From the IMG/VR virus record IMGVR_UViG_2541047680_000004: 64,000 nucleotides of DNA; one strand, 5' to 3'. Within the stretch, counting starts at the first letter, position 1. Every line of letters begins with the position of its first letter. Source of the DNA: a virus (lineage: Duplodnaviria > Heunggongvirae > Uroviricota > Caudoviricetes). A program made the translations under genes and the position numbers. The notes beneath the pieces were generated by a model. That model searched no databases. It saw only the letters and a list, made by a program, of their open reading frames with translations, and had not been told where the DNA came from. Positions 2,557 through 60,298 of the stretch are shown piece after piece.

Positions 2557-3640
2557 GAATCAGAATATCGTCCCATTTGAAATCATCCAGCTCAGACCAT
2601 TCATGAGGGAAAATAACGACCGGATCTGAATGCTCTGGAGCCTGTCGTTTCATTAGCTCACACACACCTTCCATGTGGTTGTTGTACAAATGCACGTCAA
2701 AGCCAAAATGTACAAATGCACCGGCCATGTGACCCGTAATCTTCGCGAGAAAATGAGTGAGAATGCCATAGCCAGCAATATTGAATGGCATACCAACAAA
2801 AGTGTCTACGCTACGCTGTACGAGGCAGGAGTTGAGGATGCGTTTGGGGATTCCAAGTTCATCCAGTTCAGTTTCAGTAACACTGCCGTCCATCTCCAGA
2901 TCGTATAGCATCTTGGTGTAGATAGACTCATAACCGAGGCGACTGTGTTGAAGACCAATGTCAGTTGCCATCGTTAAACGGGTTTCAAAATCAAGCTCAC
3001 GACTCCACAAAGAGAAGACAAAGTGGCAAGGTGGCAGTTTCATATCCTCAAGCTCGCCTACGTTCCATGCGTTAAGCATGATACGACGATCGGTGGGGTT
3101 CGTGCGCAGTGTATCGACAATACGCTGTAGCTGATCGATTTCACGGGACAGCACTACGCGATCTTCACTGATACCCAGGTATCCCTCGACTTTGTACCCG
3201 CGTTCACGGAAAGTATCGATCTTGCTCAGATATTCACTATGGCTCACGATGCGGGTATCTTCCCATCGACGCCACTGCTTACCGTAAACCGGCCCCAAAT
3301 CGCCATTCTCATCGGCCCATGCATCCCAAATCTTAACGCCGTTATCCTTGAGAAATTGGATGTTGCCCGTGCCTTTCAGATACCACTCAAGTTCGACAAG
3401 CAGTGGCTTAAGATTTACCGCCTTTCCAGAAATAAGCGGCACAGTCCCACCAGTAAGCATGTAGTAAGAGGGAACGTAGCAGGTGCTTAAAGTACCAGTG
3501 CCTGTGCGATCATCAGCCTGCACGCCGCTTTTAAGCACCGTCTCAATAACTTTTGCATACGATGCGTTTGTTACCTGACCGTTCGTATGCTCACGATTCA
3601 AAAGGAGTGACACAAAAACCTCACAAAGATAAGTAACCAC
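2510..3640 (-). CDS. thyA: thymidylate synthase (long form with insertion)
   Basis: DRTGTGT, YGKQWRRW and LPPCH (catalytic Cys) motifs; GTG start; 376 aa is longer than the roughly 264-aa bacterial enzyme. Confidence 0.85.
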   Translation of the reverse strand: MVTYLCEVFVSLLLNREHTNGQVTNASYAKVIETVLKSGVQADDRTGTGTLSTCYVPSYYMLTGGTVPLISGKAVNLKPLLVELEWYLKGTGNIQFLKDNGVKIWDAWADENGDLGPVYGKQWRRWEDTRIVSHSEYLSKIDTFRERGYKVEGYLGISEDRVVLSREIDQLQRIVDTLRTNPTDRRIMLNAWNVGELEDMKLPPCHFVFSLWSRELDFETRLTMATDIGLQHSRLGYESIYTKMLYDLEMDGSVTETELDELGIPKRILNSCLVQRSVDTFVGMPFNIAGYGILTHFLAKITGHMAGAFVHFGFDVHLYNNHMEGVCELMKRQAPEHSDPVVIFPHEWSELDDFKWDDILILGYDPLPWIKVPVAV

Positions 3641-3690
3641 TTATTCCTTAAGTGAGTTTACATTTATTGAGGGAACAAGGCCAGATAGAT

Positions 3691-3720
3691 AAAAAAATGG
3701 TGGCCATAGGCCACCAAAAA
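3691..3720 (-). terminator. rho-independent terminator-like hairpin (bidirectional appearance)
   Basis: tggtggcc-ata-ggccacca stem-loop flanked by A7 and A5 runs; lies just downstream of the 3785..4654 gene on the minus strand. Confidence 0.55.
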
Positions 3721-3784
3721 CGAATAGTTGTTTCAGAAATTTAACGCGCCAACGCAATATACACAGATAGATAACTACCTACAA

Positions 3785-50013: not shown

Positions 50014-50244
50014 TCATTCAGCATTGCAACGGACTGATGAGAAAGCACCTACTCCAACCCATCGCCAGTTATAGATGCTACCCGCTTTGTATAAGGTATA
50101 GTCGTTCACTTTTTTAACAGCATATATGGGTATGACTGTCTCCTGTCCACCAATGATAGCCTCACCATAACATATAGGTGTCGGCAATTTCTGGCAGCCA
50201 GTAAGAGAGAGAACAACAGCTATTGTTAGAAATAATCTTTTCAT
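50014..50244 (-). CDS. small lipoprotein (Llp-like superinfection-exclusion candidate)
   Basis: 76-aa precursor with lipobox LTGC; sits immediately downstream of the tail-fibre genes, as phage T5 llp sits beside its receptor-binding gene. Confidence 0.45.
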   Translation of the reverse strand: MKRLFLTIAVVLSLTGCQKLPTPICYGEAIIGGQETVIPIYAVKKVNDYTLYKAGSIYNWRWVGVGAFSSVRCNAE

Positions 50245-50254
50245 CGTTTACTCA

Positions 50255-50863
50255 TCAGTTATACAGATTTCTATTTATTACCGGTACTCTGCCATTTACA
50301 CTAAAACTATGGCCGCCATTAAGTTGGTTTACGAATATAGAGCTAACAGTATTTCCATATGCCGCATATCCATAAACCATTGTCATGGCCCCGCCCGGTA
50401 CTGGAACCGCGAACACATTTGCATATGTTGGGATTATCGCTGGCGGGTAATCAAAAACATGCCCTCCAGAACTGTTCCACTCCGTATTATTAAGAAAGGT
50501 AAATGAAAGTGGGATATTTGCCGTATTATAGATCTCCTCTCCTCGCGCATTGAAAAAACTCATGCCCCAAGTTTCTTTTTTGGCTATACCTTTCGAAAAT
50601 ACGTATATCGTGGCACTAGAGTCGCTACCCTGACCTCCGAAACTGTAAATCACCTGGTTGTTACGCACTATTCTGTTGGCTATTAATGAAACAGCTTTCG
50701 AATAGGCAACAAAAATCATCGGTGAACGATCTGGAGATATTTGGGTGTTAAACTCTGTCCCGCCGGACAAAGAAACAACCTGCTTTCTCTGAAAAACGAT
50801 AGGAGACAAAGAAGGAGACATCCAGACCTTCCCGTCAGATCGATATATCTTGCTTCCGTACAT
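50255..50863 (-). CDS. tail-fibre-associated hypothetical protein
   Basis: 202-aa Gly/Ser/Asn-rich ORF coupled (TAATG) to the upstream 84-aa ORF, downstream of the L-shaped fibre gene. Confidence 0.4.
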   Translation of the reverse strand: MYGSKIYRSDGKVWMSPSLSPIVFQRKQVVSLSGGTEFNTQISPDRSPMIFVAYSKAVSLIANRIVRNNQVIYSFGGQGSDSSATIYVFSKGIAKKETWGMSFFNARGEEIYNTANIPLSFTFLNNTEWNSSGGHVFDYPPAIIPTYANVFAVPVPGGAMTMVYGYAAYGNTVSSIFVNQLNGGHSFSVNGRVPVINRNLYN

Positions 50864-51117
50864 TATTTTTGAAAAACCAATATGTTTAAATTACCACTAG
50901 CTCCAGACCACGAAATGGTATTTCCAGAAACCGTAAGACTTGTGTATTTTCCATTGGTTACGTCCATTATGTAATAGTCGATTCCCAATCCCGCCTCAAC
51001 CTCATATGTTCTACTTCCTGAACCAGAGGGAGTAAAATAATCGAGGTAATAAACAGGGGCCAACGCATCGACCATCTCCTGTCTTGATGGCGACCAAACC
51101 TGTGCACCATAGCTCAT
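50863..51117 (-). CDS. hypothetical protein
   Basis: 84-aa ORF between the fibre gene and the 50255..50863 gene. Confidence 0.35.
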   Translation of the reverse strand: MSYGAQVWSPSRQEMVDALAPVYYLDYFTPSGSGSRTYEVEAGLGIDYYIMDVTNGKYTSLTVSGNTISWSGASGNLNILVFQK

Positions 51118-51177: not shown

Positions 51178-54100
51178 TTATTCTTTAGGTGAATTTAACT
51201 TCGTTTCAAGCTCCTCAACCCTTTTGGTCAATTGCTGAATATGATGAATGAGTGGTACAACCAAACGCTCATACATCACTCCTTCAGCGACCATACCATT
51301 TGAGGAAATATCTCCTGGAGAATCATTATTTGTTGGTTCACGCCAATGGACATATTGCGGGGCAATCTCACCAACCTCTTCAGCAATAAGGCCGTAATAC
51401 CCCCAATCCTTTCGGTCACCTCGACAAATTGAACGATACCAAACAGGTCTTAATGACAAAAGTTCATCAGCATATCGATCTTGTAATGTTTCAATATCCT
51501 TTTTATAGCGCCTTGAAGATGTTGAACGCCAAACTGTATTGATACCTGGGTTTGGATCAATGTACATATTGGCACCGCTAGTAGTTGTGCCAATATCCCA
51601 TATAGCAAACCCTCCACTACCGCCTGATTTGACAACCAGTGTTTCAGCAATAATATCCAGGTTGCCACTATAGCCTGTCAGTGATGATCTGCTTGCATAG
51701 GAACTTAGAAGGTTTGTTACCTCTGTTTTCGTATAAGCATTAAGGTTAGCCGCAGTCAAAGTAATATCGGCAGAGCCATCAAACGCCACACCAGCAATTT
51801 TCCTTGCTGTCTGCAATTTTGTGGCTGTTGCGGCATTACCAGTAGTATTCTGATTACCGGTTGTATTCACACCAGGGATTGAATCCTTAGCGGTATATAC
51901 CTGCGCCCACGCTGACCATGCCGCATCAGTGGTATCTCTTCTGGAGCGAATGAAAACCGGCGCATGTGCACCGCTCGTACCACTCCAGCCAATAAGCAAC
52001 TCGCCCTCACCAGCAGCACTCGCACCTTTCATGTGCAATACGTTGCCATACGTGGTCGGGTAGCTATTGTTGTACGCCTCGTACATTTGAATGCCAGCAG
52101 TACCTTGAGTAGAACCGCTTAAAGCCGTAACTCGACCACGAGAAACCAATGTATTAATATTGATATCACCTGAACCATCAAACTTAACACCATTGATGTT
52201 TCTCGCTGTTTGCAACTTCGTAGCTGTTGAAGCATTGCCATTCAAGCTACCATTTACGCCACCAGTAACATTTAGTCCATTACCAATAGACACAACACCG
52301 CTGCTATTATTAATTATAATCGGTCGCAAACTGTTCCATGAACCTAACGTATCTCCTGATGCTGTTAGCATGAAATATGTGCTGCCGCCGTCATTACGGA
52401 TAAAGAACCCGTAGTTACCGTAAGCAATGCGGAAACCATTTGCATATTTTGAAACGATCTCACCAGAAGACGTCAACCCTCCAGATAATGTGCCACCTGA
52501 AAGCGGTAATGCTCCTACATCAGAAGCTGTTGGTTTGTTTCTAGTGTTATAAGAACGACGCCAGCCTGGCGCATAATCACTCCCATTGTACACATAAATA
52601 AATTCCGCATTATTAACACCACCATGACCTGATGTTGTTGCCGTTGTAACACGAATAGTGTAGTGGCTTGTTGCCTTATTACTAAACACCTCAATCACGG
52701 AACCAGATAGATCGATCCTACCGCAACCAGTGTCGTCTATATAATTATTGTTGGCGTAAGTCCATGAGCACCGTGCGATCCAATGTTTGTTTGTAAATGC
52801 CCCCTGATTGTTTAGCCAAGTTATAAATTGAGCAGTCGTAAATGCCGTTCCGTTACCACTATTTAACCATCCAGCGGCAGCGGTTGGTGCGTTTATATCA
52901 GCCGGCTGAGGCATAAATCCAGTCGTGTAAACCTGCTCCCAACCACTTTCAAAACCATAGCCATCTCTTGAGGAACGGTAGAACAGACCACCATTTTTAT
53001 AGTGAGCTTTAATTTGAAGCGTACGGCAACTACCTACACCGGTATAAAAGTTGGCAAGAATATAACTGGCGCCTGTTCTAGTTACATTGTAAGCACCAGA
53101 TTCAGCATTCCACGGCACGCCACCATCAGCATCCGCATATGACCCTGTTGCCCTTCTTGCGAAAGCGGCAACATGCGCAGCGGTTAAAGTGATATCAGTA
53201 GAACCATCAAATGGAACACCGGATATTTTTCTTGCAGTCTGAAGTTTTGTAGCAGTTGCAGCATTACCAGTGGTGTTCTGATTACCCGTAGTGTTTACAC
53301 CTGGAAGGTTGATATTTGCAGAACCGTCGAAACCAACTCCACCGATAGATCTTGCCGTCTGCAATTTCGTTGCTGTACTTGCATTACCATTTAATGTTCC
53401 GGTGATCCCACCAGTAACAGACAACGGACCTGAAACTGTTCCTCCGGTTGTTGGCAGTGCTCCAATATCTAACGGCGTCGGTTTCTGATGTGTGCTATAC
53501 ATCGTATAAACAACACCATCGGTAACGCTGGAAGGCTTACTCGCTGAATATGTTGGCGATGTATAAACAGAAACTGACGCATTTGCAGTACAATCCCAAT
53601 GGATATTTACACTCGTCGCATAATTGCCAATTTCAACGTAAATATCATATGTATCGCCGGATGTGTTGATCCAGGCGAAATTCGTTAATCCGACAGCTGT
53701 ACGCTTCCACAAAGCACCTGTAATCCCTTTGGGGTTTCCATTGCCTGCTCGTAGAACCAGTTCTGAAATGCCTGCCTGATGTGGGGAGCCGACGTTGTAA
53801 CCAGCGCCACCAATCAATGCGATGTAAACGATGGAACTCGCTTGTGGCATTGTAACAGTAGCCAGTTTGAACCACCCGGCCCCGCCAGAGAAAGACATCG
53901 TTATTGAATTTAAAGTACCAATATCTTTCGGCGTTAATGTGATATCCGCAGTCAGTGCTTTCCCGTTAATTTTTCGGTTAGATGGCACCCTGCTGTTCGC
54001 ATTGTCATTGACTACTTTAACTGCTTTTGGCGTTGCGGCCAGCGATTCACTGGTGCTGTCGACAGCACTGCTAAGTTTCACAACACCTTTAGTTGTAAGG

Positions 54101-55476
54101 CTTGCGTCTTCCATCGCAACTGCACCGGCAATCTCTTCAGCACGATCAGCAGCAGCTTCCGCACGGGTCGCAGCGGATTCAGCAGCAGTTTTGCTCTGAG
54201 ATGCTGCCGTCGCACTGCCTGCCGCCTCTGTTGCTTTCGTGGATGCCGTCGTGGCGCTGCCCTTCGCTGCTGACGCCTGTCTGGTCGCCTCATCTTTTGA
54301 AGCAGACGCAGATGATGCCGATGACGCTGCCGAACTGGCGGACGATGCGGCTGCCGTTTTTGAGGATTCTGCACGGGTTTCCGACGCTTTCGCGTTCGTT
54401 TCGGATGTCTTCGCTGCGGAAGCAGACCTCGCTGCTGCGCTGGCCTGTTCAGTGGCTTCGCCAGCCTTCGTTGTGGCTGTTGAAGCAGATGATGCGGCAC
54501 TTTCTGCCGATTTTCCGGCGGCGGTGGCACTGGCTGAGGCCTGCCCGGCACTTGTTGACGCGGCACTGGCAGACGACGCAGCCGCTGTTTTTGAGCCTGC
54601 CGCAGCCGAGGCGCTCTGTCCCGCTGCCGTTTCAGAAGACCTGGCGTTCGTCTCGGACGTTTTTGCCGCCTTCGCGGAATTTCCTGCCGCCGTTGCCGAG
54701 GAAGCGGCATTACTGGCGCTCGAGGCTGCGCTCGTTTCTGATGATTTCGCTGCCTCTTTTGAGGCCGCCGCATCCCGGGCTGAGGTGGCAGCTTCTGACG
54801 CCTTCGTGGTCGCGGTGGATGCAGAAGTGGCTGCAGATTTTTGTGACGCTGCAGCATTCGTTTCAGACGTTTTCGCGGCACCGGCACTGGTGGCCGCCGC
54901 GCTTTTTGAGGACTCTGCAGCGGATGCACTTTGAGACGCTTGAGAGGCTTTTTCTCCAGCGGTATTGGCGCTTTCTGCTGCTGCGGCAGCACTGGCCGCC
55001 GCCTCACGAGCTTTGTCGCCAGCAGCATCAATCGCGTCAGTGTTATTTTTATACCACTCAACGTTTTCGTTGTGCTCGTTGACGATCTGCATTAGCGGCT
55101 TAACGGTCACTTCTGTACCGTCTTCACGCTCGATTGTCACCTCATCCAGAGCAGTCAACCAACTGCGCATGGACTTGGAATCAGCCGACATACGCGACAT
55201 TAGTGCTGTAAAGCGCGCGCTAAACTGTGTTAAGTCGCCTTCATAGGTCGTAATGATTCGGCACGGAACTTCAGACTGAGTTTCGCCGGTATAGGGTTCT
55301 GAGAGAACAATGTTCGTATCACTGGTTACGCGCTTGATCTCATACAGCTTATTGTCGGGGCCAATGACGATCATCCCCGGCAACACACCATTAGCTGTTA
55401 CGTTCCAGGCTGTCCCTGCCCCAACCAGAGTATTGCTGCCCTGTGTAAATGTGATAGTACCTTCCCTGTACCACAT
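51178..55476 (-). CDS. long tail fibre with C-terminal intramolecular-chaperone (peptidase S74-like) domain
   Basis: 1432 aa; Ala/Ser/Thr-rich stalk; triplicated GNASTATKLQTAR ... FDGS modules; C-terminal SRRYKKDIETL ... chaperone/autoproteolysis-like domain as in T5 pb1-type fibres. Confidence 0.75.
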   Translation of the reverse strand: MWYREGTITFTQGSNTLVGAGTAWNVTANGVLPGMIVIGPDNKLYEIKRVTSDTNIVLSEPYTGETQSEVPCRIITTYEGDLTQFSARFTALMSRMSADSKSMRSWLTALDEVTIEREDGTEVTVKPLMQIVNEHNENVEWYKNNTDAIDAAGDKAREAAASAAAAAESANTAGEKASQASQSASAAESSKSAAATSAGAAKTSETNAAASQKSAATSASTATTKASEAATSARDAAASKEAAKSSETSAASSASNAASSATAAGNSAKAAKTSETNARSSETAAGQSASAAAGSKTAAASSASAASTSAGQASASATAAGKSAESAASSASTATTKAGEATEQASAAARSASAAKTSETNAKASETRAESSKTAAASSASSAASSASSASASKDEATRQASAAKGSATTASTKATEAAGSATAASQSKTAAESAATRAEAAADRAEEIAGAVAMEDASLTTKGVVKLSSAVDSTSESLAATPKAVKVVNDNANSRVPSNRKINGKALTADITLTPKDIGTLNSITMSFSGGAGWFKLATVTMPQASSIVYIALIGGAGYNVGSPHQAGISELVLRAGNGNPKGITGALWKRTAVGLTNFAWINTSGDTYDIYVEIGNYATSVNIHWDCTANASVSVYTSPTYSASKPSSVTDGVVYTMYSTHQKPTPLDIGALPTTGGTVSGPLSVTGGITGTLNGNASTATKLQTARSIGGVGFDGSANINLPGVNTTGNQNTTGNAATATKLQTARKISGVPFDGSTDITLTAAHVAAFARRATGSYADADGGVPWNAESGAYNVTRTGASYILANFYTGVGSCRTLQIKAHYKNGGLFYRSSRDGYGFESGWEQVYTTGFMPQPADINAPTAAAGWLNSGNGTAFTTAQFITWLNNQGAFTNKHWIARCSWTYANNNYIDDTGCGRIDLSGSVIEVFSNKATSHYTIRVTTATTSGHGGVNNAEFIYVYNGSDYAPGWRRSYNTRNKPTASDVGALPLSGGTLSGGLTSSGEIVSKYANGFRIAYGNYGFFIRNDGGSTYFMLTASGDTLGSWNSLRPIIINNSSGVVSIGNGLNVTGGVNGSLNGNASTATKLQTARNINGVKFDGSGDININTLVSRGRVTALSGSTQGTAGIQMYEAYNNSYPTTYGNVLHMKGASAAGEGELLIGWSGTSGAHAPVFIRSRRDTTDAAWSAWAQVYTAKDSIPGVNTTGNQNTTGNAATATKLQTARKIAGVAFDGSADITLTAANLNAYTKTEVTNLLSSYASRSSLTGYSGNLDIIAETLVVKSGGSGGFAIWDIGTTTSGANMYIDPNPGINTVWRSTSSRRYKKDIETLQDRYADELLSLRPVWYRSICRGDRKDWGYYGLIAEEVGEIAPQYVHWREPTNNDSPGDISSNGMVAEGVMYERLVVPLIHHIQQLTKRVEELETKLNSPKE

Positions 55477-55567
55477 GTTGAATATGCTCCTTGATTTGGT
55501 GGGCTATCCTTGCCCCCATTAAGTGTGTACCTACTTATTTTTACCGATATAAATATTTTTTTCTACA

Positions 55568-58500
55568 TTACAGAAGGCCAATTCTTACTCGTAGGACGTT
55601 GTTATCGTCATAAACGTCAATCCGCTGACCATTTATGACCAGTCGCCCATTACCCCCGCTATTACCGTTGATCTCAAGCGTTCCATTTTTGCCGAACCGC
55701 CATCCAGATCTACCGCTAACAAAATTGGTAGATTGCAGATCGCCTACTTTTGCATTGGTGATTGTGCCATCCTTGATATACGCACCATTCATATAGGCGA
55801 TACTGTTTTCGATAACAAATGGCGTGGTGATCTTCCCGTTAACAGAGTTGACCAAACCAAACCTGTCAGCCTGCACCAAAAACTGAGAAAGGCCAGTGGT
55901 GTCGATACCAAGCGCAATACCAGCAACATACTTCTGCCCTCCGCTCGTTGAAGTTTCCATTTTCAACGTCCACGCGGTTGACACTTTTTTGTTGGTATCA
56001 GCAATAGCTGTTGCCTGCTGTTGAATTGTCGCGGTATTTCCATCCACCTCTGCTTTCAGAGTATCGATTCGCCCACTCAGAGCATTATCTGCCTGCGTTC
56101 TCGCTGTCGTTTCAGTTGTTACCGCCGCGGAAATGTTGGCTGCCGTTTGAGACTCTAAGTTTGTGATTTGAGTCGCCAATGCAGCATCTTGCTCTGTACG
56201 CGTTTTCGTTTCGGTTGCTACAGCCGCTTTAATATCCTCTTTGTATTGAGAGGTCAGCTTGGTGATCTGAGACGACAACGCCGAGTCAGCATCAGTTCGA
56301 GCCTGCGTTTCAACTGCAACGGCCGCACTAATATCTTTCGCTGTCTGTGCTTTTAAACTTGAAACCTCTTTTGTTAAAGCGGTATCACCATCAGCACGAG
56401 CCGTTGTTTCTCTGGCAAGAGATGCCTCGAGATCATTAGCTTTTGCTGTAAGAGACGAAATCTGAGTGGACAATGCACTATCGGCATCAGTCCTTGCCTT
56501 TGTCTCTACAGCAACCGCTGCGGCAATATCAGTTCCGGTTTGTGCTCGCAGGCTGTTAATTTCTCGTGAGAGCGCCTGGTCAGCACTTGCTCTGGCCTCC
56601 TGCTCCTGAGTGATGGCAGCGGATATATCACCGTCAACCTTTGACTGAAGCTGGTTTATTAGTTTGGCTAACGCAGAGTCCCCGCTTGCTCGGGCCTCCT
56701 GCTCACTACGTATTGCAGCAGAAATATCATCATCAACCTTTGCCTGAAGTTGGGTGATCTGGCTTGCCAGAGCCGAATCTTCCGTTGCTCGGGCTTCTTG
56801 CTCTTCCTTAATAGCTGCGACGATATCGTTGCTTACTTTCGACTCAAGCTGAGTGATCTGTGTCGTCAGAGCTTCATCGGCAGATGTGCGAGCCTCCTGC
56901 TCTGTACTAATCGCCGCGCTGATATCTCCTTCAAACTTAGATTGCAGCTGAGTGACACGCTTTGCCAACGCTTCATCGCCATCGGCACGAGCGGTGGACT
57001 CTTCCAGAATACTGGCCTTAATGTCTTCGCCAATTTCTACGCGAATTTCCTCAACCTTCGTGGCCATTGCAGACATATCATCAGCAAAGGTTTTCTGTGT
57101 TGTTGCGATCTTCGCGTTATTGACCATCTGCTTGTGCTGGTCTTCATCTTGACGAAGAGCCAGGTCAATATTTGTTTTGGCTAACGCCTCAATGTTCGTA
57201 GTCAGTTCTGCACTGGCACGATCGACCTCTGCAACCGTCTTTTTCATTTCTTCAACGGCAGCGGAGCTTTCCTCTACCGTTGACTGCAACACTTCCAGTT
57301 GTTTAGCGTTTGCAGCATCGCCTTCAACACGAGCCTCGCTTTCCTTAGCAATAAGAGCCGCCGCTTCATCTCTTGCAGCCTTTATTGCCTCGACTGTATT
57401 AGCGAGAGCTTTATCGTGTTCAGATACGGTGTTTTCGATTTCAACAATTGCAGCATCAGTGGCATCAATTTTTTCAAACGCTTCATTGACCTTGTCGATC
57501 GTTGCCGAAACCTCACCTTTAAGCTCGGTTTGTGCGTTCTCCAAAGCATCGCTACGCTCGTTGAATTTTATTTCAAAACCCGCGAGGTTATCGCTGAACT
57601 GCTTATCTAATTCAGCTATATCTTCCTTAACGTCGTTTACCGACCCCTCCAAAGATTCGACGCTCTGGTTGATATGCTCATTTAACTCGTCAACTGCTTC
57701 TTGAGAGGCTTTGCTGTTGATGTCCTCAAGCAGAGCCTGACCAAGCTCGGAAGATGTAATTTTGCCAGCCAGGAACGACAGTACATCGCGAGTTGTCGCC
57801 TCTGTACCCAAGTTTGAGTTCGGAGGGCTTAACATACCTCGCTTGTTCGATGCTCGAACCCAGTAATACCACGTTTCGCTATCCCCAAGACCAGCATGTG
57901 TAAAGGTGGTGCTTGCAGACTCTGCGATCAGTTTCGCCGTATCCAGATTGTTGGTCTGGGATGCGTAAACATTAATGTGATCAAGGTCTACCGAATCTGG
58001 ATTAACCCAATTCAGTATCACATTACGATAGTCTCCAACGGCCGTTAATGACGTTGGGGCATCCGGCGGTGTCATTGTGCCCAACACCTGATAAACGGTA
58101 CTGATAATCTCTGTTTTTTTACCGTTGAATGAAACCGCATACAGTTGGAAGTCGTAGCGTCCATTCTCCGCGACATTAACGATTTCGTATTGCTCTTCGG
58201 TTACACGCGCCGATTGCCAGTTCGATACATTGTTTTCATCAGAACGTCGCCAACTGATCCAATACTCTGGAGATTTTCCTTCCCATGTTGCAGTCAGTTT
58301 TACTGACAGGTTGCCCGGGCTTGAGAGATAAGTCCCTTCAGTGATTTGCAGATTAGATGGCTTGGAGTAAGTTGGGTCCAATACCGTCGTATTCTGCGGG
58401 ATCAGCGTTGCACCATTGTCGATTGCCTCATATTTAGACGGATTGTTCTCAACAGCGGTGATGTCAAAGCTACCCGGCGTTTCCCCCTGCGCGATGTTAA

Positions 58501-60298
58501 CGATGCGAACGCGCATAGGTTCGAGATCTGGTTCTGTAATTGTCCAGACACCGTTCAAAACAGGCGTTTCCGCTGACGACAGGGCTTTTGAAAACGTAAC
58601 CTTTGTTATGTTTTCGCCAGTTTCAAGAACATCGCGTTCAACGATTTTGCCTTCCTGATTCAATATCCGAATAAAGCTGCCGCTTTTAGCTAACGACACA
58701 GGCGCATCGAGAGTGATGCTGTTTTTGGTAAACTCCACAATTCGACCGGAGTTACGTTTACCTGCACGATATTTGTTCTGAATCAGAACGGTTTCACCGG
58801 GCATCAGAAATGAGGCGTCTAAGCCGGCAGTAAATGTAATTACATCCGACTCCATTCTGGCGGTATACAAAAGCCACAAACCAACTCGGTGAGCCTGGCC
58901 TCGGCTTGTACATCCAAATGCTACGACTTCTGTTTTACGCTCACCATAACGGCGCATTGCGTCCTGATCTTCAACGTACTCGATGTTTTGCTTATAACCG
59001 TCCTCCTTGTTGTTGTAGGTTACGAGCGCAACGGATGGGCGATCTTTACGCGCAGAACCTTTATAGGTAAACAGTCCATCTTTGACGTTGGAGTTGGTAA
59101 ACATCATTACCGGATCTGATGGGCTATCCTGCATGATGTTAACCATGCCACCAGCCCAAAACACCATGCCGCGGAATGCACCGGCAATATCCTGAATTAA
59201 TCGGTATGCGTCTTGTCGACTGGTGATCTGCGTATTGATTGCAAAGCGTTTCTCTTTACCCCCAAAGCCATCATCGACCTCTTCGTCACAATATCGACCA
59301 ATCTGGTAGAGCTGGCCGAGGTCAATCATGGATTCCGACACAAATTGCCCAAGACCATACCGAGTATTGGTAAGCAAATCGTAGAGAATCCACGCAGGGT
59401 TTGAAGAAGACAACAGCTTAAAAGTACCGTCCCATACGCCGACATAAGTATTGGTGTATTCGTTGTAGTTTGACGGTACTCGGATTTTGATACCGCGCAC
59501 CAAATACGAACGGGAAGGCATTGTGCTACCAAACTGCTCTGAATTGACCTTCAAGCCAACAAGAGCAGAGTTAGGGTAGTTCATTGGCGTGTCGACAATC
59601 TCACCGATGGAATCAACCCATGTGTCGTTGTAGAGGTACTGGCTACTATTATCATCTGTAAGACGAATCACCCTAACCTTGTATGCACGACCAGGCTTAG
59701 GCAGTTTCAGCTCATAGCTACGGTAATACACGCCGGTTTTCTTTGCCGTTAGCGTGATATCAACGCTTTTCTCACCTTCTGCCACTACATCAGAAAATGT
59801 TGCGTCTGCGTTGGCGATCTGGAATTTGTACTTCACCGTAGTGCCATTTGTATCGCCAGAGCTTTTATCAACGCTACGTAAAGAGGGGAATTTCATGATG
59901 ACACGAACGCGATCAGCTTCATCGTTATCGATTGAAACCGTAACGTCGTGTGTTTTTTTAAGCTGAATATTTACGGACTTAGGCGTTTCGACAAAATCAA
60001 AACCAGCCATTGGCGTCTGATCTTGTGAGCCGTCACGAAAATCCCATGTAATACCGCTGAAGTTGGAAGAGCCATCTTCATTCAAGATCGGTAAATCGTC
60101 GATGAAGATCGACTTTGCGCCATTTACCAGGCCACCGATAACCCCCTCGCCAAGAAGGTCGAGGATGGCTGCCATAGCACGAGAATTGACAGTATCATCA
60201 GCTTCAACCGGGGTACGGCTGGAGCTTTTACTTTTCTTGCCACCAGCACCGGCAATAAGAAGCGGTAATTTTTTCTTCTTGAACTGTTCCATGTCCAA
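55568..60298 (-). CDS. lambda J-like central tail fibre / tail tip protein with C-terminal coiled-coil repeat array
   Basis: N-terminal and central regions align in motif order with lambda gpJ (SRSYLVRGIKIRVPSNYN, WDGTF, FGCTSRGQAHRVGLWLL, fibronectin-like segment); about 12 tandem 29-aa repeats in the C-terminal third. Confidence 0.8.
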   Translation of the reverse strand: MDMEQFKKKKLPLLIAGAGGKKSKSSSRTPVEADDTVNSRAMAAILDLLGEGVIGGLVNGAKSIFIDDLPILNEDGSSNFSGITWDFRDGSQDQTPMAGFDFVETPKSVNIQLKKTHDVTVSIDNDEADRVRVIMKFPSLRSVDKSSGDTNGTTVKYKFQIANADATFSDVVAEGEKSVDITLTAKKTGVYYRSYELKLPKPGRAYKVRVIRLTDDNSSQYLYNDTWVDSIGEIVDTPMNYPNSALVGLKVNSEQFGSTMPSRSYLVRGIKIRVPSNYNEYTNTYVGVWDGTFKLLSSSNPAWILYDLLTNTRYGLGQFVSESMIDLGQLYQIGRYCDEEVDDGFGGKEKRFAINTQITSRQDAYRLIQDIAGAFRGMVFWAGGMVNIMQDSPSDPVMMFTNSNVKDGLFTYKGSARKDRPSVALVTYNNKEDGYKQNIEYVEDQDAMRRYGERKTEVVAFGCTSRGQAHRVGLWLLYTARMESDVITFTAGLDASFLMPGETVLIQNKYRAGKRNSGRIVEFTKNSITLDAPVSLAKSGSFIRILNQEGKIVERDVLETGENITKVTFSKALSSAETPVLNGVWTITEPDLEPMRVRIVNIAQGETPGSFDITAVENNPSKYEAIDNGATLIPQNTTVLDPTYSKPSNLQITEGTYLSSPGNLSVKLTATWEGKSPEYWISWRRSDENNVSNWQSARVTEEQYEIVNVAENGRYDFQLYAVSFNGKKTEIISTVYQVLGTMTPPDAPTSLTAVGDYRNVILNWVNPDSVDLDHINVYASQTNNLDTAKLIAESASTTFTHAGLGDSETWYYWVRASNKRGMLSPPNSNLGTEATTRDVLSFLAGKITSSELGQALLEDINSKASQEAVDELNEHINQSVESLEGSVNDVKEDIAELDKQFSDNLAGFEIKFNERSDALENAQTELKGEVSATIDKVNEAFEKIDATDAAIVEIENTVSEHDKALANTVEAIKAARDEAAALIAKESEARVEGDAANAKQLEVLQSTVEESSAAVEEMKKTVAEVDRASAELTTNIEALAKTNIDLALRQDEDQHKQMVNNAKIATTQKTFADDMSAMATKVEEIRVEIGEDIKASILEESTARADGDEALAKRVTQLQSKFEGDISAAISTEQEARTSADEALTTQITQLESKVSNDIVAAIKEEQEARATEDSALASQITQLQAKVDDDISAAIRSEQEARASGDSALAKLINQLQSKVDGDISAAITQEQEARASADQALSREINSLRAQTGTDIAAAVAVETKARTDADSALSTQISSLTAKANDLEASLARETTARADGDTALTKEVSSLKAQTAKDISAAVAVETQARTDADSALSSQITKLTSQYKEDIKAAVATETKTRTEQDAALATQITNLESQTAANISAAVTTETTARTQADNALSGRIDTLKAEVDGNTATIQQQATAIADTNKKVSTAWTLKMETSTSGGQKYVAGIALGIDTTGLSQFLVQADRFGLVNSVNGKITTPFVIENSIAYMNGAYIKDGTITNAKVGDLQSTNFVSGRSGWRFGKNGTLEINGNSGGNGRLVINGQRIDVYDDNNVLRVRIGLL
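56000..57300 (-). repeat. tandem repeat array of roughly 87 bp inside the J-like gene
   Basis: Repeating DNA units encoding ...DISAAI.(E/T)EQEARA(S/T)(A/G)D.AL...I..L..K... ; boundaries approximate. Confidence 0.6.

What the first reader, a model, noticed from the sequence alone, without database searches (positions are those of the whole stretch)
51178..55476. Fibre gene: triplicated receptor-binding-type module, Ala/Ser-rich low-complexity stalk and spurious antisense ORFs
The fibre contains three copies of a GNASTATKLQTAR ... FDGS module (DNA about 51.8, 53.25 and 53.4 kb) and a 350-aa Ala/Ser/Thr/Lys low-complexity stalk (about 54.1-55.0 kb). That stalk also generates long artefactual ORFs on both strands (54078..55061, 54102..55082, 54239..54934). 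The C-terminus ends in an S74-like intramolecular chaperone domain expected to be cleaved off after trimerisation. Module duplication suggests a recently reshuffled receptor-binding region.
Basis: partly seen in the sequence, partly recalled or inferred. Interest (0 to 1): 0.45.

Follow-up and report, generated by a model that had tools for sequence, protein, structure and literature searches.

The report
Mosaic phage-plasmid side tail fibre
This is an ordinary, already-sequenced side tail fibre gene of an SSU5-like E. coli phage-plasmid, assembled from exchangeable cassettes; the "repeated receptor module" is really a common shaft repeat, and the stalk is a strict coiled-coil whose DNA almost lacks the dinucleotide TA, which explains the phantom reading frames.

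Summary
The 1432-aa ORF (51178..55476, minus strand) is real and intact. It has a strong ribosome-binding site and is 99.6-99.7% identical to the fibre gene of pECOH89-type E. coli phage-plasmids.

- The GNAxTATKLQTAR...FDGS unit occurs four times, not three; the copy at 52.2 kb was missed.
- The "low-complexity" stalk is an unbroken run of 45 heptads (aa 146-460), so a coiled-coil rod.
- The three alternative-frame ORFs exist, two antisense and one on the sense strand.
- The S74 chaperone domain is confirmed: Pfam above cut-off, with Ser1320 and Lys1325 invariant in 127 diverse relatives.

The repeat is not a receptor-binding module and not a recent duplication, since copies are only 62-77% identical in DNA. 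It is the roughly 40-aa shaft repeat also found at the N-terminus of T4-type gp37, in P2-like, P1-like and lambdoid fibres, and in the trimeric spike of phage L Dec. Its copies mark the borders of exchanged cassettes (12 of 18 breakpoint clusters, P = 4e-7).

One thing remains unexplained. The stalk DNA has 2 TA dinucleotides in 945 bp, well below what synonymous shuffling gives. This leaves one antisense frame fully open. That frame is interrupted in most relatives, so it is not a gene.

The parts
51178..55476 (-). Side tail fibre gene, 1432 aa, intact from Met1
   Evidence: ORF list. 99.6-99.7% identical over the full length to pECOH89-type plasmids. PHROG tail-fibre families.
55487..55492 (-). 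Shine-Dalgarno AAGGAG, 8 nt upstream of the ATG at 55476
   Evidence: Sequence read directly. It supports Met1 as the start, although RefSeq records start the gene at aa 129 or Met455.
55042..55476 (-). N-terminal domain (aa 1-145), the part shared across the SSU5 group; inferred tail-attachment domain
   Evidence: The N-terminal stretches nt 1-361 to 1-625 (most 1-479 to 1-625) are 73-78% identical in SSU5, Yersinia pestis, Enterobacter, Citrobacter and Salmonella phage-plasmids, while the rest of the gene differs. The attachment role is inferred.
54097..55041 (-). Heptad-repeat stalk (aa 146-460, 45 heptads, consensus x-x-S-A-x-A-A); inferred trimeric coiled-coil rod about 46 nm long
   Evidence: Autocorrelation peaks at every multiple of 7; Fourier peaks at 3.5 and 7.0 residues; Ala at one heptad position in 43 of 45 heptads. 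88-95% DNA identity to lambdoid side tail fibre genes from nt 522 onward.
54096..54963 (.). TA-dinucleotide desert: TA-free runs of 615 and 252 bp
   Evidence: 2 TA in 945 bp, observed/expected 0.06 against 0.75 for the window; the next longest TA-free run in 64 kb is 131 bp. Codon-junction T|A: 2 observed against 14.5 +/- 2.9 under synonymous permutation, 0 of 5000 shuffles.
53980..54102 (-). Phage_fiber_2 motif (aa 459-499, ASLTTKGVVKLSSAVDSTSESLAATPKAVK)
   Evidence: Pfam PF03406, E = 5e-19. Aligns to Mu fibre S residues 105-156 in 8ju3 and 5yvq. Recurrent breakpoint at nt 1478-1485.
53425..53970 (-). Unassigned beta-rich cassette (aa 503-684), ending in KPTPLDIGALP
   Evidence: No Pfam or PDB match. 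A 73-74% DNA-identical copy sits at a different, distal position in the CMS-2020a and pAMPD01 fibres.
53305..53424 (-). 40-aa shaft repeat, copy 1 (aa 685-724)
53176..53304 (-). 40-aa shaft repeat, copy 2 (aa 725-767), in tandem with copy 1
   Evidence: Breakpoints at nt 2209-2291.
52873..53166 (-). Domain homologous to Mu S' residues 324-421 (aa 771-868); also Pfam gp37_C
   Evidence: phmmer against 8ju3, E = 3e-21. PF12604 at 24.9 bits against a cut-off of 22.5.
52519..52899 (-). Domain homologous to Mu S' residues 201-326 (aa 860-986); its order relative to the previous domain is swapped compared with Mu S'
   Evidence: phmmer against 8ju3, E = 7.5e-35.
52276..52509 (-). Gp34_trimer-type domain (aa 990-1067), as in T4 gp34 and Mu S
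   Evidence: PF21446, E = 1.5e-29. PDB 5yvq, 4uxe, 5nxf and 9x3r.
52156..52275 (-).
   Evidence: The CMS-2020a and AH04 homology ends inside it, at nt 3272.
51877..52155 (-). Knob cassette (aa 1108-1200) between repeats 3 and 4
   Evidence: 84-86% DNA-identical block from nt 3238 to 3701-3735 in P1-like phage-plasmid fibres. A related plasmid gene is annotated as a pyocin knob domain protein (H150).
51739..51876 (-). 40-aa shaft repeat, copy 4 (aa 1201-1246)
   Evidence: Breakpoints at nt 3588-3781.
51520..51738 (-). Distal tip (aa 1247-1319), the inferred mature C-terminus and candidate receptor-binding tip
   Evidence: Lies immediately upstream of the conserved cleavage motif. The part from about aa 1290 is conserved together with the chaperone domain in 4625 cluster representatives. 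The receptor role is inferred.
51181..51519 (-). S74-type intramolecular chaperone domain (aa 1320-1432), with Ser1320 and Lys1325
   Evidence: PF13884 above cut-off. RSTSSxxYK is invariant in 127 representatives. Profile hit to 8hqz, E = 1e-8, and alignment of S1320 and K1325 to the S and K of SDERLK in 8jov.
54078..55061 (-). Alternative-frame ORF (sense strand, +1 frame, 327 aa): artefact
   Evidence: An open frame is expected from composition: 74% of codon shuffles reach it.
54239..54934 (+). Antisense ORF (231 aa, Ala/Asp-rich): artefact
   Evidence: Expected from composition: 34% of shuffles reach it.
54102..55082 (+). Antisense ORF (326 aa, Leu/Pro/Gln/Arg-rich): not expected from composition, but not conserved
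   Evidence: 0 of 2000 and 0 of 5000 shuffles reach it. It has 7 stops in pEC881_2, 11 in SSU5, 2 in 2H10, and at least 1 stop in 56 of 72 IMG/VR stalks.

Best explanation
This is the side tail fibre of an SSU5-like E. coli phage-plasmid of the pECOH89 type. It is a bead-on-a-string protein, inferred to be a homotrimer, assembled from cassettes that are exchanged horizontally.

**Order of parts**
1. An SSU5-lineage N-terminal domain (aa 1-145), inferred to anchor the fibre to the tail tip.
2. A 45-heptad Ala/Ser coiled-coil rod (aa 146-460) shared with lambdoid Stf genes.
3. The Phage_fiber_2 collar motif.
4. A chain of beta-rich knobs: an unassigned domain, two Mu S'-type domains in swapped order, a gp34/Mu S-type trimerisation domain, and a knob shared with P1-like fibres.
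5. Four copies of a roughly 40-aa shaft repeat (GNAxTATKLQTARxIxGVxFDGSxxI) separating the knobs.
6. A short distal tip.
7. A C-terminal S74 intramolecular chaperone.

**Shown here**
- The domain homologies.
- The heptad register.
- The four repeat copies and their coincidence with borders of homology blocks in relatives.
- The conserved Ser1320/Lys1325 motif.

**Inferred from the families**
- The chaperone domain templates trimer folding of the distal part and then cuts itself off at Ser1320, so no separate tail fibre assembly gene is needed (none is present).
- The mature tip (about aa 1108-1319) binds a surface glycan reversibly, while the J protein provides the irreversible receptor step.
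- The conserved repeats, and the register-tolerant heptad stalk, act as homology patches that let distal cassettes be swapped between phage-plasmids, lambdoid prophages and P1-like elements.

**Alternative-frame ORFs**
They are by-products of stalk DNA that almost lacks TA, so only TGA can act as a stop codon in any frame.
For: **Identity and context**
- SSU5-like phage-plasmids, with the tail genes J, K, L, M upstream and lysis genes downstream.

**Domains**
- Pfam and PDB matches.

**Heptads**
-.

**Repeat**
- Four copies.
- 1-7 copies in relatives, often at exact 40-aa spacing.
- Found in 206 phage records, including P2-like, lambdoid and T4-like gp37.
- RB3 gp37 aa 60-103 carries it. This is where the review PMC3004832 places the single gp37 copy of the gp34/gp12 shaft quasi-repeat.
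- The repeat profile hits PhiM1 fibre gp47 (8vbx) and the C-terminal trimeric spike of phage L Dec (6e3c) at E about 1e-5.

**Cassette borders**
- 12 of 18 breakpoint clusters lie in repeats that cover 13.9% of the gene, P = 4e-7.
- At least four different C-terminal ends occur among E. coli relatives.

**S74 domain**
-.
- Auto-cleavable pfam13884 domains in DT57C LtfA and T5 Ltf are described in PMC4728585.

**No assembly gene**
- No Tfa gene follows the fibre here, whereas the AH04 variant with a different C-terminus has one.

**Alternative-frame ORFs**
-.
Against: - No structure could be obtained: both AlphaFold monomer models were unusable (pLDDT 31 and 33). Trimer state, coiled-coil geometry and the fold of the repeat therefore rest on homology and periodicity.
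- Cleavage, receptor and attachment partner are untested.
- An Ala/Ser core is unusual for a stable parallel trimeric coiled coil.
- The breakpoint statistic uses 16 hand-picked relatives, and alignments naturally extend into conserved motifs.
- The equivalence of this repeat with the gp34 and gp12 quasi-repeats was shown only for the gp37 copy. phmmer and the profile did not hit gp34 or gp12 chains.
Confidence: 0.85

Rival explanations
1. One reading: the repeated unit is a receptor-binding module that was recently triplicated, marking a freshly reshuffled receptor-binding region.
For: The unit is repeated, and the distal half of the gene is mosaic among close relatives.
Against: - There are four copies.
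- Paralogues are 62-77% identical in DNA, with about half of the identical-residue codons differing.
- The same unit occurs 1-7 times in other fibres, sits at the N-terminal (non-receptor) end of gp37, and occurs in a capsid decoration protein spike.
- The whole 4.3-kb gene is 97-99.7% identical in about 20 listed plasmids of different origin (at least 95.7% in 21), so this arrangement is established and circulating.
Confidence: 0.05
2. Polyvalent fibre: the internal Mu S'-type and Mu S/gp34-type knobs are additional lateral receptor-binding sites, so the fibre recognises several glycans along its length and not only at the tip.
For: aa 771-986 are clearly homologous to the variable, host-range-determining part of Mu S' (8ju3; E = 3e-21 and 7.5e-35). 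Pfam gp37_C also hits there.
Against: - The domains are internal and in swapped order relative to Mu S'.
- The gp34_trimer domain is a structural element in the non-adhesive proximal half-fibre of T4.
- No binding data exist.
- This reading is compatible with the main explanation rather than exclusive of it.
Confidence: 0.2
3. The antisense ORF 54102..55082 (+) is a real overlapping gene, and TA avoidance is selection to keep it open.
For: - The frame is stop-free over all 314 stalk codons, against 10.1 +/- 2.5 stops expected under synonymous permutation (0 of 5000).
- The phi458 record annotates an antisense hypothetical protein in the same place.
Against: - The frame has 7 stops in the orthologous pEC881_2 fibre, 11 in SSU5, 18 in 9g and 2 in 2H10. 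It is interrupted in 56 of 72 related stalks that still show TA depletion.
- Every sense-synonymous change alters the antisense residue, yet four-fold sites in the stalk diverge about as fast as in the flanks.
- The product is Leu/Pro/Gln/Arg/Trp-rich nonsense-like sequence.
Confidence: 0.03
4. The gene is a decaying remnant in a cryptic, non-inducible plasmid, and its architecture has no present function.
For: - RefSeq records annotate truncated starts.
- Several relatives carry IS2 or IS66 insertions in the gene.
- A 2022 study reported no lysogenic conversion by the four resistance-carrying SSU5-like phage-plasmids it tested, on 18 Enterobacter cloacae strains.
Against: - The ORF here is intact over 1432 codons with a strong ribosome-binding site.
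- First and second codon positions are far more conserved than four-fold sites outside the stalk.
- The catalytic motif is intact.
- The truncated starts are annotation choices, not mutations.
Confidence: 0.08

Closest known systems
Side tail fibres of temperate enterobacterial phages (lambda Stf, Mu S/S', P1 S, P2 H)
   Same: - The Ala/Ser-rich stalk is 88-95% DNA-identical to lambdoid stf genes.
- It carries the Phage_fiber_2 motif.
- Knobs are homologous to Mu S' and Mu S.
- Repeats and a knob are shared with P1-like S fibres.
- The architecture is mosaic.
   Different: - The N-terminal domain is SSU5-type, not the prophage tail fibre N-terminal domain.
- The two Mu S' domains are in swapped order.
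- There is no invertible segment and no separate Tfa/U chaperone gene. The C-terminus carries an S74 chaperone instead.
Fibres and spikes with a C-terminal S74 intramolecular chaperone (K1F endosialidase, T5 Ltf/pb1, DT57C LtfA/LtfB, lateral fibres of T1-like phages)
   Same: - PF13884 at the extreme C-terminus.
- A Ser...Lys motif, with S1320 and K1325 aligned to SDERLK.
- A C-terminal helical segment.
- The specificity region lies directly upstream.
   Different: - The local motif is TSSxxYK rather than SDxRxK.
- The closest phage homologues of the tip plus chaperone unit are mostly 47-56% identical (one partial match 62%), in lambdoid and T1-like phages.
- The upstream body of the protein is unrelated to T5 or K1F.
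- Cleavage is not demonstrated.
T4 long tail fibre proteins gp34 and gp37 (shaft quasi-repeats and bead-like domains)
   Same: - A Gp34_trimer domain.
- A 40-aa repeat matching the repeat at aa 60-103 of T4-type gp37.
- Beads-on-a-stick organisation.
   Different: - A single polypeptide on a siphovirus-type tail rather than a four-protein hinged fibre.
- It has a long coiled-coil rod that T4 fibres lack.
- The repeat profile did not detect gp34 or gp12 chains directly.
Phage L decoration protein Dec and PhiM1 fibre gp47 (solved structures containing the repeat)
   Same: The repeat profile matches Dec aa 93-133 and gp47 aa 314-353 at E about 1e-5. In Dec this segment forms the C-terminal three-stranded trimeric spike.
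   Different: Each has a single copy with a 7-residue insertion. The Dec spike is modelled at low resolution. The proteins are otherwise unrelated.

Membership tests
Peptidase S74 / intramolecular chaperone of endosialidase (PF13884) | Profile match above the curated cut-off | tested here: met
   27 bits (whole protein) and 29.4 bits (fragment) against a cut-off of 22, at aa 1320-1376.
Peptidase S74 / intramolecular chaperone of endosialidase (PF13884) | Located at the extreme C-terminus of a fibre or spike protein | tested here: met
   aa 1320-1432 of 1432. In 127 representatives a median of 2 residues follow the domain.
Peptidase S74 / intramolecular chaperone of endosialidase (PF13884) | Conserved Ser and Lys (Ser-x4-Lys) at the start of the domain | tested here: met
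   S1320, S1321 and K1325 are 100% conserved in 127 cluster representatives. S1320 and K1325 align to the S and K of SDERLK in 8jov and to TS....YKKD in 8hqz.
Peptidase S74 / intramolecular chaperone of endosialidase (PF13884) | Autoproteolytic release after trimerisation | not testable with these tools
   Needs protein chemistry. Inferred from the family (PMC4728585).
Lambda Stf / Mu S-type side tail fibre | Phage_fiber_2 motif (PF03406) | tested here: met
   E = 5e-19 at aa 459-499. Aligns to Mu S residues 105-156.
Lambda Stf / Mu S-type side tail fibre | Prophage tail fibre N-terminal domain (PF08400), as in lambdoid Stf | tested here: not met
   No Pfam hit in aa 1-450. The N-terminus matches SSU5-group fibres instead. 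Some chromosomal relatives of the distal part do carry PF08400 (P0057).
Lambda Stf / Mu S-type side tail fibre | Separate tail fibre assembly chaperone (Tfa/U) encoded immediately downstream | tested here: not met
   The downstream ORFs of 84 and 202 aa match only PHROG 557 and 425, not Tfa families. The AH04 variant with another C-terminus does have a Tfa gene.
T4-type shaft quasi-repeat (gp34/gp12/gp37) | Sequence match to the gp37 N-terminal repeat | tested here: met
   RB3 gp37 has GNLTGNAATATKLKTARKINGISFDGSKDITL at aa 71-102, within the aa 60-103 segment. tblastn hits gp37 in many Tequatrovirus records. The repeat position is as described in PMC3004832.
T4-type shaft quasi-repeat (gp34/gp12/gp37) | Detectable similarity to the gp34 and gp12 repeats themselves | tested here: not met
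   Neither phmmer nor the repeat profile hit gp34 (9x3r, 5nxf) or gp12 chains at E up to 10.
Alpha-helical coiled coil | Uninterrupted heptad periodicity with small or hydrophobic residues at two core positions | tested here: met
   Identity autocorrelation peaks at 7, 14 ... 77 residues; Fourier peaks at 3.5 and 7.0; Ala 43 of 45 and Ala 30 of 45 at two positions spaced 3 and 4 apart.
Alpha-helical coiled coil | Helical, trimeric structure | not tested
The stalk itself was not modelled.

The most novel reading that the evidence does not exclude
The near-absence of TA in the Stf-type heptad stalk is an actively maintained feature of this widely exchanged DNA segment, not a passive by-product.

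**The numbers**
- 2 TA in 945 bp here.
- Codon-junction T|A at 0.26 of expectation, summed over 72 related stalks.
- No such depletion in phage 9g.

**Possible causes**
- Selection against UA-specific RNA cleavage.
- Selection against TA-targeting insertion or nuclease attack.
- Selection against internal promoter -10 elements.
- Least likely, a lineage-restricted antisense product.

If real, it would be a nucleotide-level constraint superimposed on one of the most frequently recombined gene segments of E. coli phages.
Probability: 0.15. Interest if true: 0.5.

Novelty: new member of a known kind. Interest (0 to 1): 0.2.

Why it matters
**Annotation**
- The full gene starts at Met1, whereas RefSeq records start it at aa 129 or at Met455.
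- The antisense and +1-frame ORFs should not be called as genes.
- The roughly 40-aa repeat is a shaft element, not an adhesin.

**Host-range engineering**
The map of cassette borders shows where distal modules of SSU5-like phage-plasmids, lambdoid prophages and P1-like elements are naturally swapped. The borders are the four repeats, the end of the Phage_fiber_2 motif, the KPTxxDIGALP linker, and a junction inside the heptad stalk. This is of interest for host-range engineering, and some members of this plasmid group carry CTX-M-15 resistance (PMC3999498, PMC5427194).

**Beyond the routine**
The TA-free stalk is the only element that goes beyond routine. It is a small sequence-statistics puzzle, not a new system.

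Tried and rejected
- **AlphaFold2 monomer models.** aa 1093-1432 and aa 655-1110 were modelled with shallow alignments, because all available homologues are 75-100% identical. Mean pLDDT was 30.6 and 32.8. The models are unusable, so no fold search was run.
- **phmmer of the tandem repeat against PDB.** Only chance hits. A profile of 21 repeat copies was needed.
- **NCBIfam scan.** No family for the fibre or the two downstream ORFs.
- **Literature.** The search for the FDGS motif found nothing relevant. The mBio phage-plasmid paper says nothing specific about this fibre.
- **Chi sites as an explanation for exchange in the stalk.** None lies inside the gene.
- **Composition-only explanation of all three alternative-frame ORFs.** Rejected for 54102..55082.
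- **Overlapping-gene explanation for that ORF.** Rejected on comparative grounds.
- **Recent-duplication explanation for the repeats.** Rejected on DNA divergence.

Full report
**What is there**

The window holds a 1432-codon ORF on the minus strand, 51178..55476. AAGGAG lies 8 nt upstream of its ATG. Upstream is a 1576-aa lambda-J-type tip protein. Downstream are two small ORFs, a cor-like lipoprotein ORF, a holin-like ORF and an endolysin.

The gene is 99.6-99.7% identical over its whole length to genes on E. coli plasmids of about 112 kb, including pECOH89. It is 95.7-97.4% identical to a dozen or so more such plasmids. Partial matches tie it to phage Cyrano, CMS-2020a and SSU5. pECOH89 is described as an SSU5-like, CTX-M-15-bearing phage-like plasmid (PMC3999498). 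So this is the side tail fibre of an SSU5-like phage-plasmid. The sequence is already public and already named "tail fiber protein" or "chaperone of endosialidase".

**Checking the observation**

*The repeat.*
- The GN(A)xTATKLQTAR...FDGS unit is real: self-BLASTP gives E = 2e-26 and 5e-18.
- It occurs four times, at aa 697, 737, 1080 and 1213.
- There are two subtypes. Copies 1 and 3 are preceded by (L/N)xVTGGxxGxLN. Copies 2 and 4 are preceded by PGVNTTGNQNTT.
- Copies 1 and 2 are in tandem at exactly 40-residue spacing.

*The stalk.*
- It spans aa 146-460 (54097-55041), is 70-78% Ala/Ser/Thr and has GC 0.61.
- It is not random low complexity. Residue identity autocorrelates at every multiple of 7 up to 77. 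Fourier peaks lie at 3.5 and 7.0 residues.
- Written in sevens, it reads as 45 uninterrupted heptads with consensus x-x-S-A-x-A-A. Ala occupies one position in 43 of 45 heptads.
- This is the signature of a long alpha-helical coiled coil. At the canonical 0.148 nm per residue it would be about 46 nm long. That length is an inference, and the stalk was not modelled.

*The alternative-frame ORFs.* All three exist as listed. 54078..55061 is on the sense strand in the +1 frame, and the other two are antisense.

*The S74 domain.*
- PF13884 scores above its curated cut-off at aa 1320-1376.
- Against 1.84 billion cluster representatives, the last 187 residues have 4625 relatives, nearly always at protein C-termini.
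- In 127 representatives with near-full coverage, R-S-T-S1320-S1321-x-x-Y-K1325 is essentially invariant.
- A profile of 18 of these hits the C-terminal domain of a solved L-shaped tail fibre (8hqz; E = 1e-8). It also aligns S1320 and K1325 to the S and K of the canonical SDERLK motif in 8jov.
- Auto-cleavable pfam13884 domains at the ends of DT57C LtfA/LtfB and T5 Ltf are described in PMC4728585. Cleavage here is inferred, not shown.

**What the repeat is**

It is not a receptor-binding module.
- tblastn with one copy finds it in 206 phage records: P2-like, lambdoid, 9g, SSU5 and many T4-like phages, where it lies in gp37.
- In RB3 gp37 it is at aa 60-103, the N-terminal end that joins gp36.
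- The review by Leiman et al. (PMC3004832) places there the single gp37 copy of the quasi-repeats that build the gp34 rod and also occur in gp12.
- A profile of 21 copies hits two solved chains at E about 1e-5: PhiM1 tail fibre gp47 aa 314-353 (8vbx) and phage L Dec aa 93-133 (6e3c).
- In Dec that segment forms the C-terminal three-stranded trimeric spike (PMC6449081).
- Relatives carry 1 to 7 copies, often in tandem at exact 40-residue spacing.
- No Pfam family covers it.
- I could not show direct similarity to the gp34 or gp12 repeats themselves.

It is also not a recent duplication. Paralogous copies are 62-77% identical in DNA, and about half of the codons for identical residues differ. 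By contrast, individual copies have 77-97% identical counterparts in other elements.

**Domain map**

From Pfam and PDB sequence searches:

| Residues | Assignment |
|---|---|
| 459-499 | Phage_fiber_2, equivalent to Mu S 105-156 |
| 503-684 | Unassigned cassette |
| 685-767 | Repeats 1 and 2 |
| 771-868 | Homologous to Mu S' 324-421; also gp37_C |
| 860-986 | Homologous to Mu S' 201-326 |
| 990-1080 | Gp34_trimer type (T4 gp34, Mu S) |
| 1068-1107 | Repeat 3 |
| 1108-1200 | Knob shared with P1-like fibres |
| 1201-1246 | Repeat 4 |
| 1247-1319 | Tip |
| 1320-1432 | S74 domain |

The two Mu S'-type domains are in the opposite order from Mu S'. The aa 503-684 cassette recurs, 73-74% DNA-identical, at a distal position in the CMS-2020a and pAMPD01 fibres. 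Domain order is therefore itself variable.

**Comparison among relatives**

I fetched 16 relatives and ran local blastn. The gene resolves into blocks with different histories.

| Block (nt) | Identity | Shared with |
|---|---|---|
| 1 to about 480-740 | 73-78% | SSU5, Yersinia pestis, Enterobacter, Citrobacter and Salmonella phage-plasmids |
| 522-1478 | 88% | Lambdoid phage 2H10 |
| 525-2273 | 95% | Lambdoid phage phi458 |
| 2209-2529 and 3238-3735 | 84-86% | P1-like phage-plasmids |
| 3272 or 3781 onward | replaced | Close SSU5-like relatives |

At least four different C-terminal ends occur among the E. coli relatives.

Ends of blocks at least 150 nt long and at least 80% identical form 18 clusters. 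Twelve lie within the four repeats plus or minus 15 nt, which cover 13.9% of the gene (binomial P = 4e-7). Others fall at the end of the Phage_fiber_2 motif (nt 1478-1485), at KPTPLDIGALP (nt 1993) and inside the heptad stalk (nt 522-525).

Two caveats apply. The relatives were hand-picked. Alignments also tend to run into conserved motifs and stop there.

The picture fits the long-known mosaicism of tail fibre genes, cited from the literature as Sandmeier et al. 1992. "Recently" and "module duplication" are not.

**The alternative-frame ORFs and the TA desert**

*What composition explains.* Codon-order shuffles and synonymous resampling show that the sense +1 frame and one antisense frame (54239..54934) are expected to stay open, given the amino-acid composition. 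74% and 34% of shuffles reach the observed length.

*What composition does not explain.* The other antisense frame (54102..55082) is stop-free over all 314 stalk codons. Shuffles give a longest open run of 79 +/- 26 codons (0 of 2000). Under the strictest null, permuting synonymous codons within the stalk, 10.1 +/- 2.5 stops are expected (0 of 5000).

*The cause.*
- Codons ending in T almost never precede codons starting with A: 2 observed against 14.5-17.7 expected, Fisher P = 4e-8. Elsewhere in the gene, in J and in 29 long ORFs of the window, the observed/expected ratio is 0.83-0.88.
- The stalk also has no Tyr and almost no Ile, Leu or Val. Together this leaves 2 TA dinucleotides in 945 bp (observed/expected 0.06).
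- TA-free runs of 615 and 252 bp result. The next longest in the 64-kb window is 131 bp.
- Without TA, only TGA can stop any frame.

*Is the open antisense frame a gene?* No.
- It has 7 stops in the orthologous pEC881_2 fibre, 11 in SSU5, 18 in 9g and 2 in 2H10.
- It is interrupted in 56 of 72 distinct related stalks from IMG/VR, although these keep T|A at 0.26 of expectation overall.
- Four-fold degenerate sites in the stalk diverge about as fast as in the flanks. Each such change would alter the antisense protein.

The artefact nevertheless rests on a family-wide depletion of TA that amino-acid composition does not explain. That depletion is absent from the 9g stalk and weaker in SSU5. I have no tested explanation for it.

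**How it most likely works**

*Shown:* the architecture, the homologies, the heptad register, the conserved Ser/Lys motif, and the absence of a Tfa gene.

*Inferred from the families:*
- Three chains associate.
- The C-terminal S74 domain nucleates folding of the distal beta-structure and then removes itself at Ser1320.
- The N-terminal SSU5-type domain fixes the fibre to the tail tip.
- The coiled-coil rod and the knob-and-repeat shaft project the tip (about aa 1108-1319) towards a surface glycan for reversible binding.
- The J protein makes the irreversible contact. The downstream cor-like gene hints at FhuA, from general knowledge of Cor, but this was not tested.

*Inferred from the breakpoint map:* the conserved repeats act as homology patches for cassette exchange. 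So does the heptad stalk, where any in-register crossover preserves the coiled coil.

**What failed**

Both structure predictions were unusable, because all retrievable homologues of these segments are 75-100% identical. No fold search was therefore run.

**Verdict**

This is a well-formed but ordinary mosaic tail fibre, already in the databases. The finding's observation is partly confirmed and its interpretation partly supported. Interest is low. The TA-free heptad stalk is the one point I could not explain.

Noticed in passing
window 54096-54963 (stalk DNA); loci L021-L099: The stalk DNA is almost free of TA: 2 in 945 bp, with TA-free runs of 615 and 252 bp against at most 131 bp elsewhere in the window. 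T-ending codons almost never precede A-starting codons (2 against 14.5 +/- 2.9 under synonymous permutation). The depletion is shared by 72 related stalks (0.26 of expectation) but not by the phage 9g stalk. The cause is unknown.
   Followed up: partly
window 50014-50244 (-): A 76-aa ORF with a lipoprotein signal (LSLTGC). The same position is annotated "phage exclusion lipoprotein Cor" in the 99.7%-identical plasmid pEc2-51408. This hints that the phage uses FhuA through its J protein.
   Followed up: partly
window 50863-51117 (-) and 50255-50863 (-): Two ORFs of 84 and 202 aa lie directly after the fibre. They match only PHROG 557 ("outer membrane protein") and PHROG 425 ("membrane associated protein"), with no Pfam or NCBIfam family. 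They are present after some fibre variants (S74-type, AH04, pEC881_2) and absent in Cyrano, pPK8276 and pAMPD01.
   Followed up: partly
window 55568-60298 (-), repeats around 56586-56803 and beyond: The J-type tip protein is 1576 aa long and carries a long run of roughly 33-aa repeats (99-nt period by Tandem Repeats Finder), of the form DISAAI..EQEAR.SAD.AL..QI.QLQSKV. They look like an inserted coiled-coil segment before the C-terminal tip domain.
   Followed up: no
whole window; none within 51178-55476: The Chi sequence GCTGGTGG occurs 13 times in the 64-kb window, against 1.6 expected from shuffles. None lies inside the fibre gene and two lie in J.
   Followed up: no
window 54112-54114 (Met455 codon) and 55476 (Met1); loci L017, L018: RefSeq records of near-identical plasmids start the fibre at Met455 (978 aa) or at aa 129, although Met1 has a strong ribosome-binding site and the ORF is continuous. 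Many database entries are "partial" proteins that begin inside the stalk, probably because short-read assemblies break in the stalk sequence shared with chromosomal prophages.
   Followed up: partly
protein P0088 (885 aa; cluster of 546 member sequences): A common variant matches aa 455-1328 at 95% identity and then ends about 6 residues later. It therefore lacks the S74 chaperone domain just after the predicted cleavage site.
   Followed up: no
loci L005 (CMS-2020a), L006 (pYLMB30c), L016 (SSU5): Other SSU5-group fibres end in a different helical C-terminus (...VKELREEVRELKAKM). At least in pYLMB30c and SSU5 this is followed by a separate "receptor-recognizing" or adhesin gene, so the group uses several distinct distal-end solutions.
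   Followed up: no
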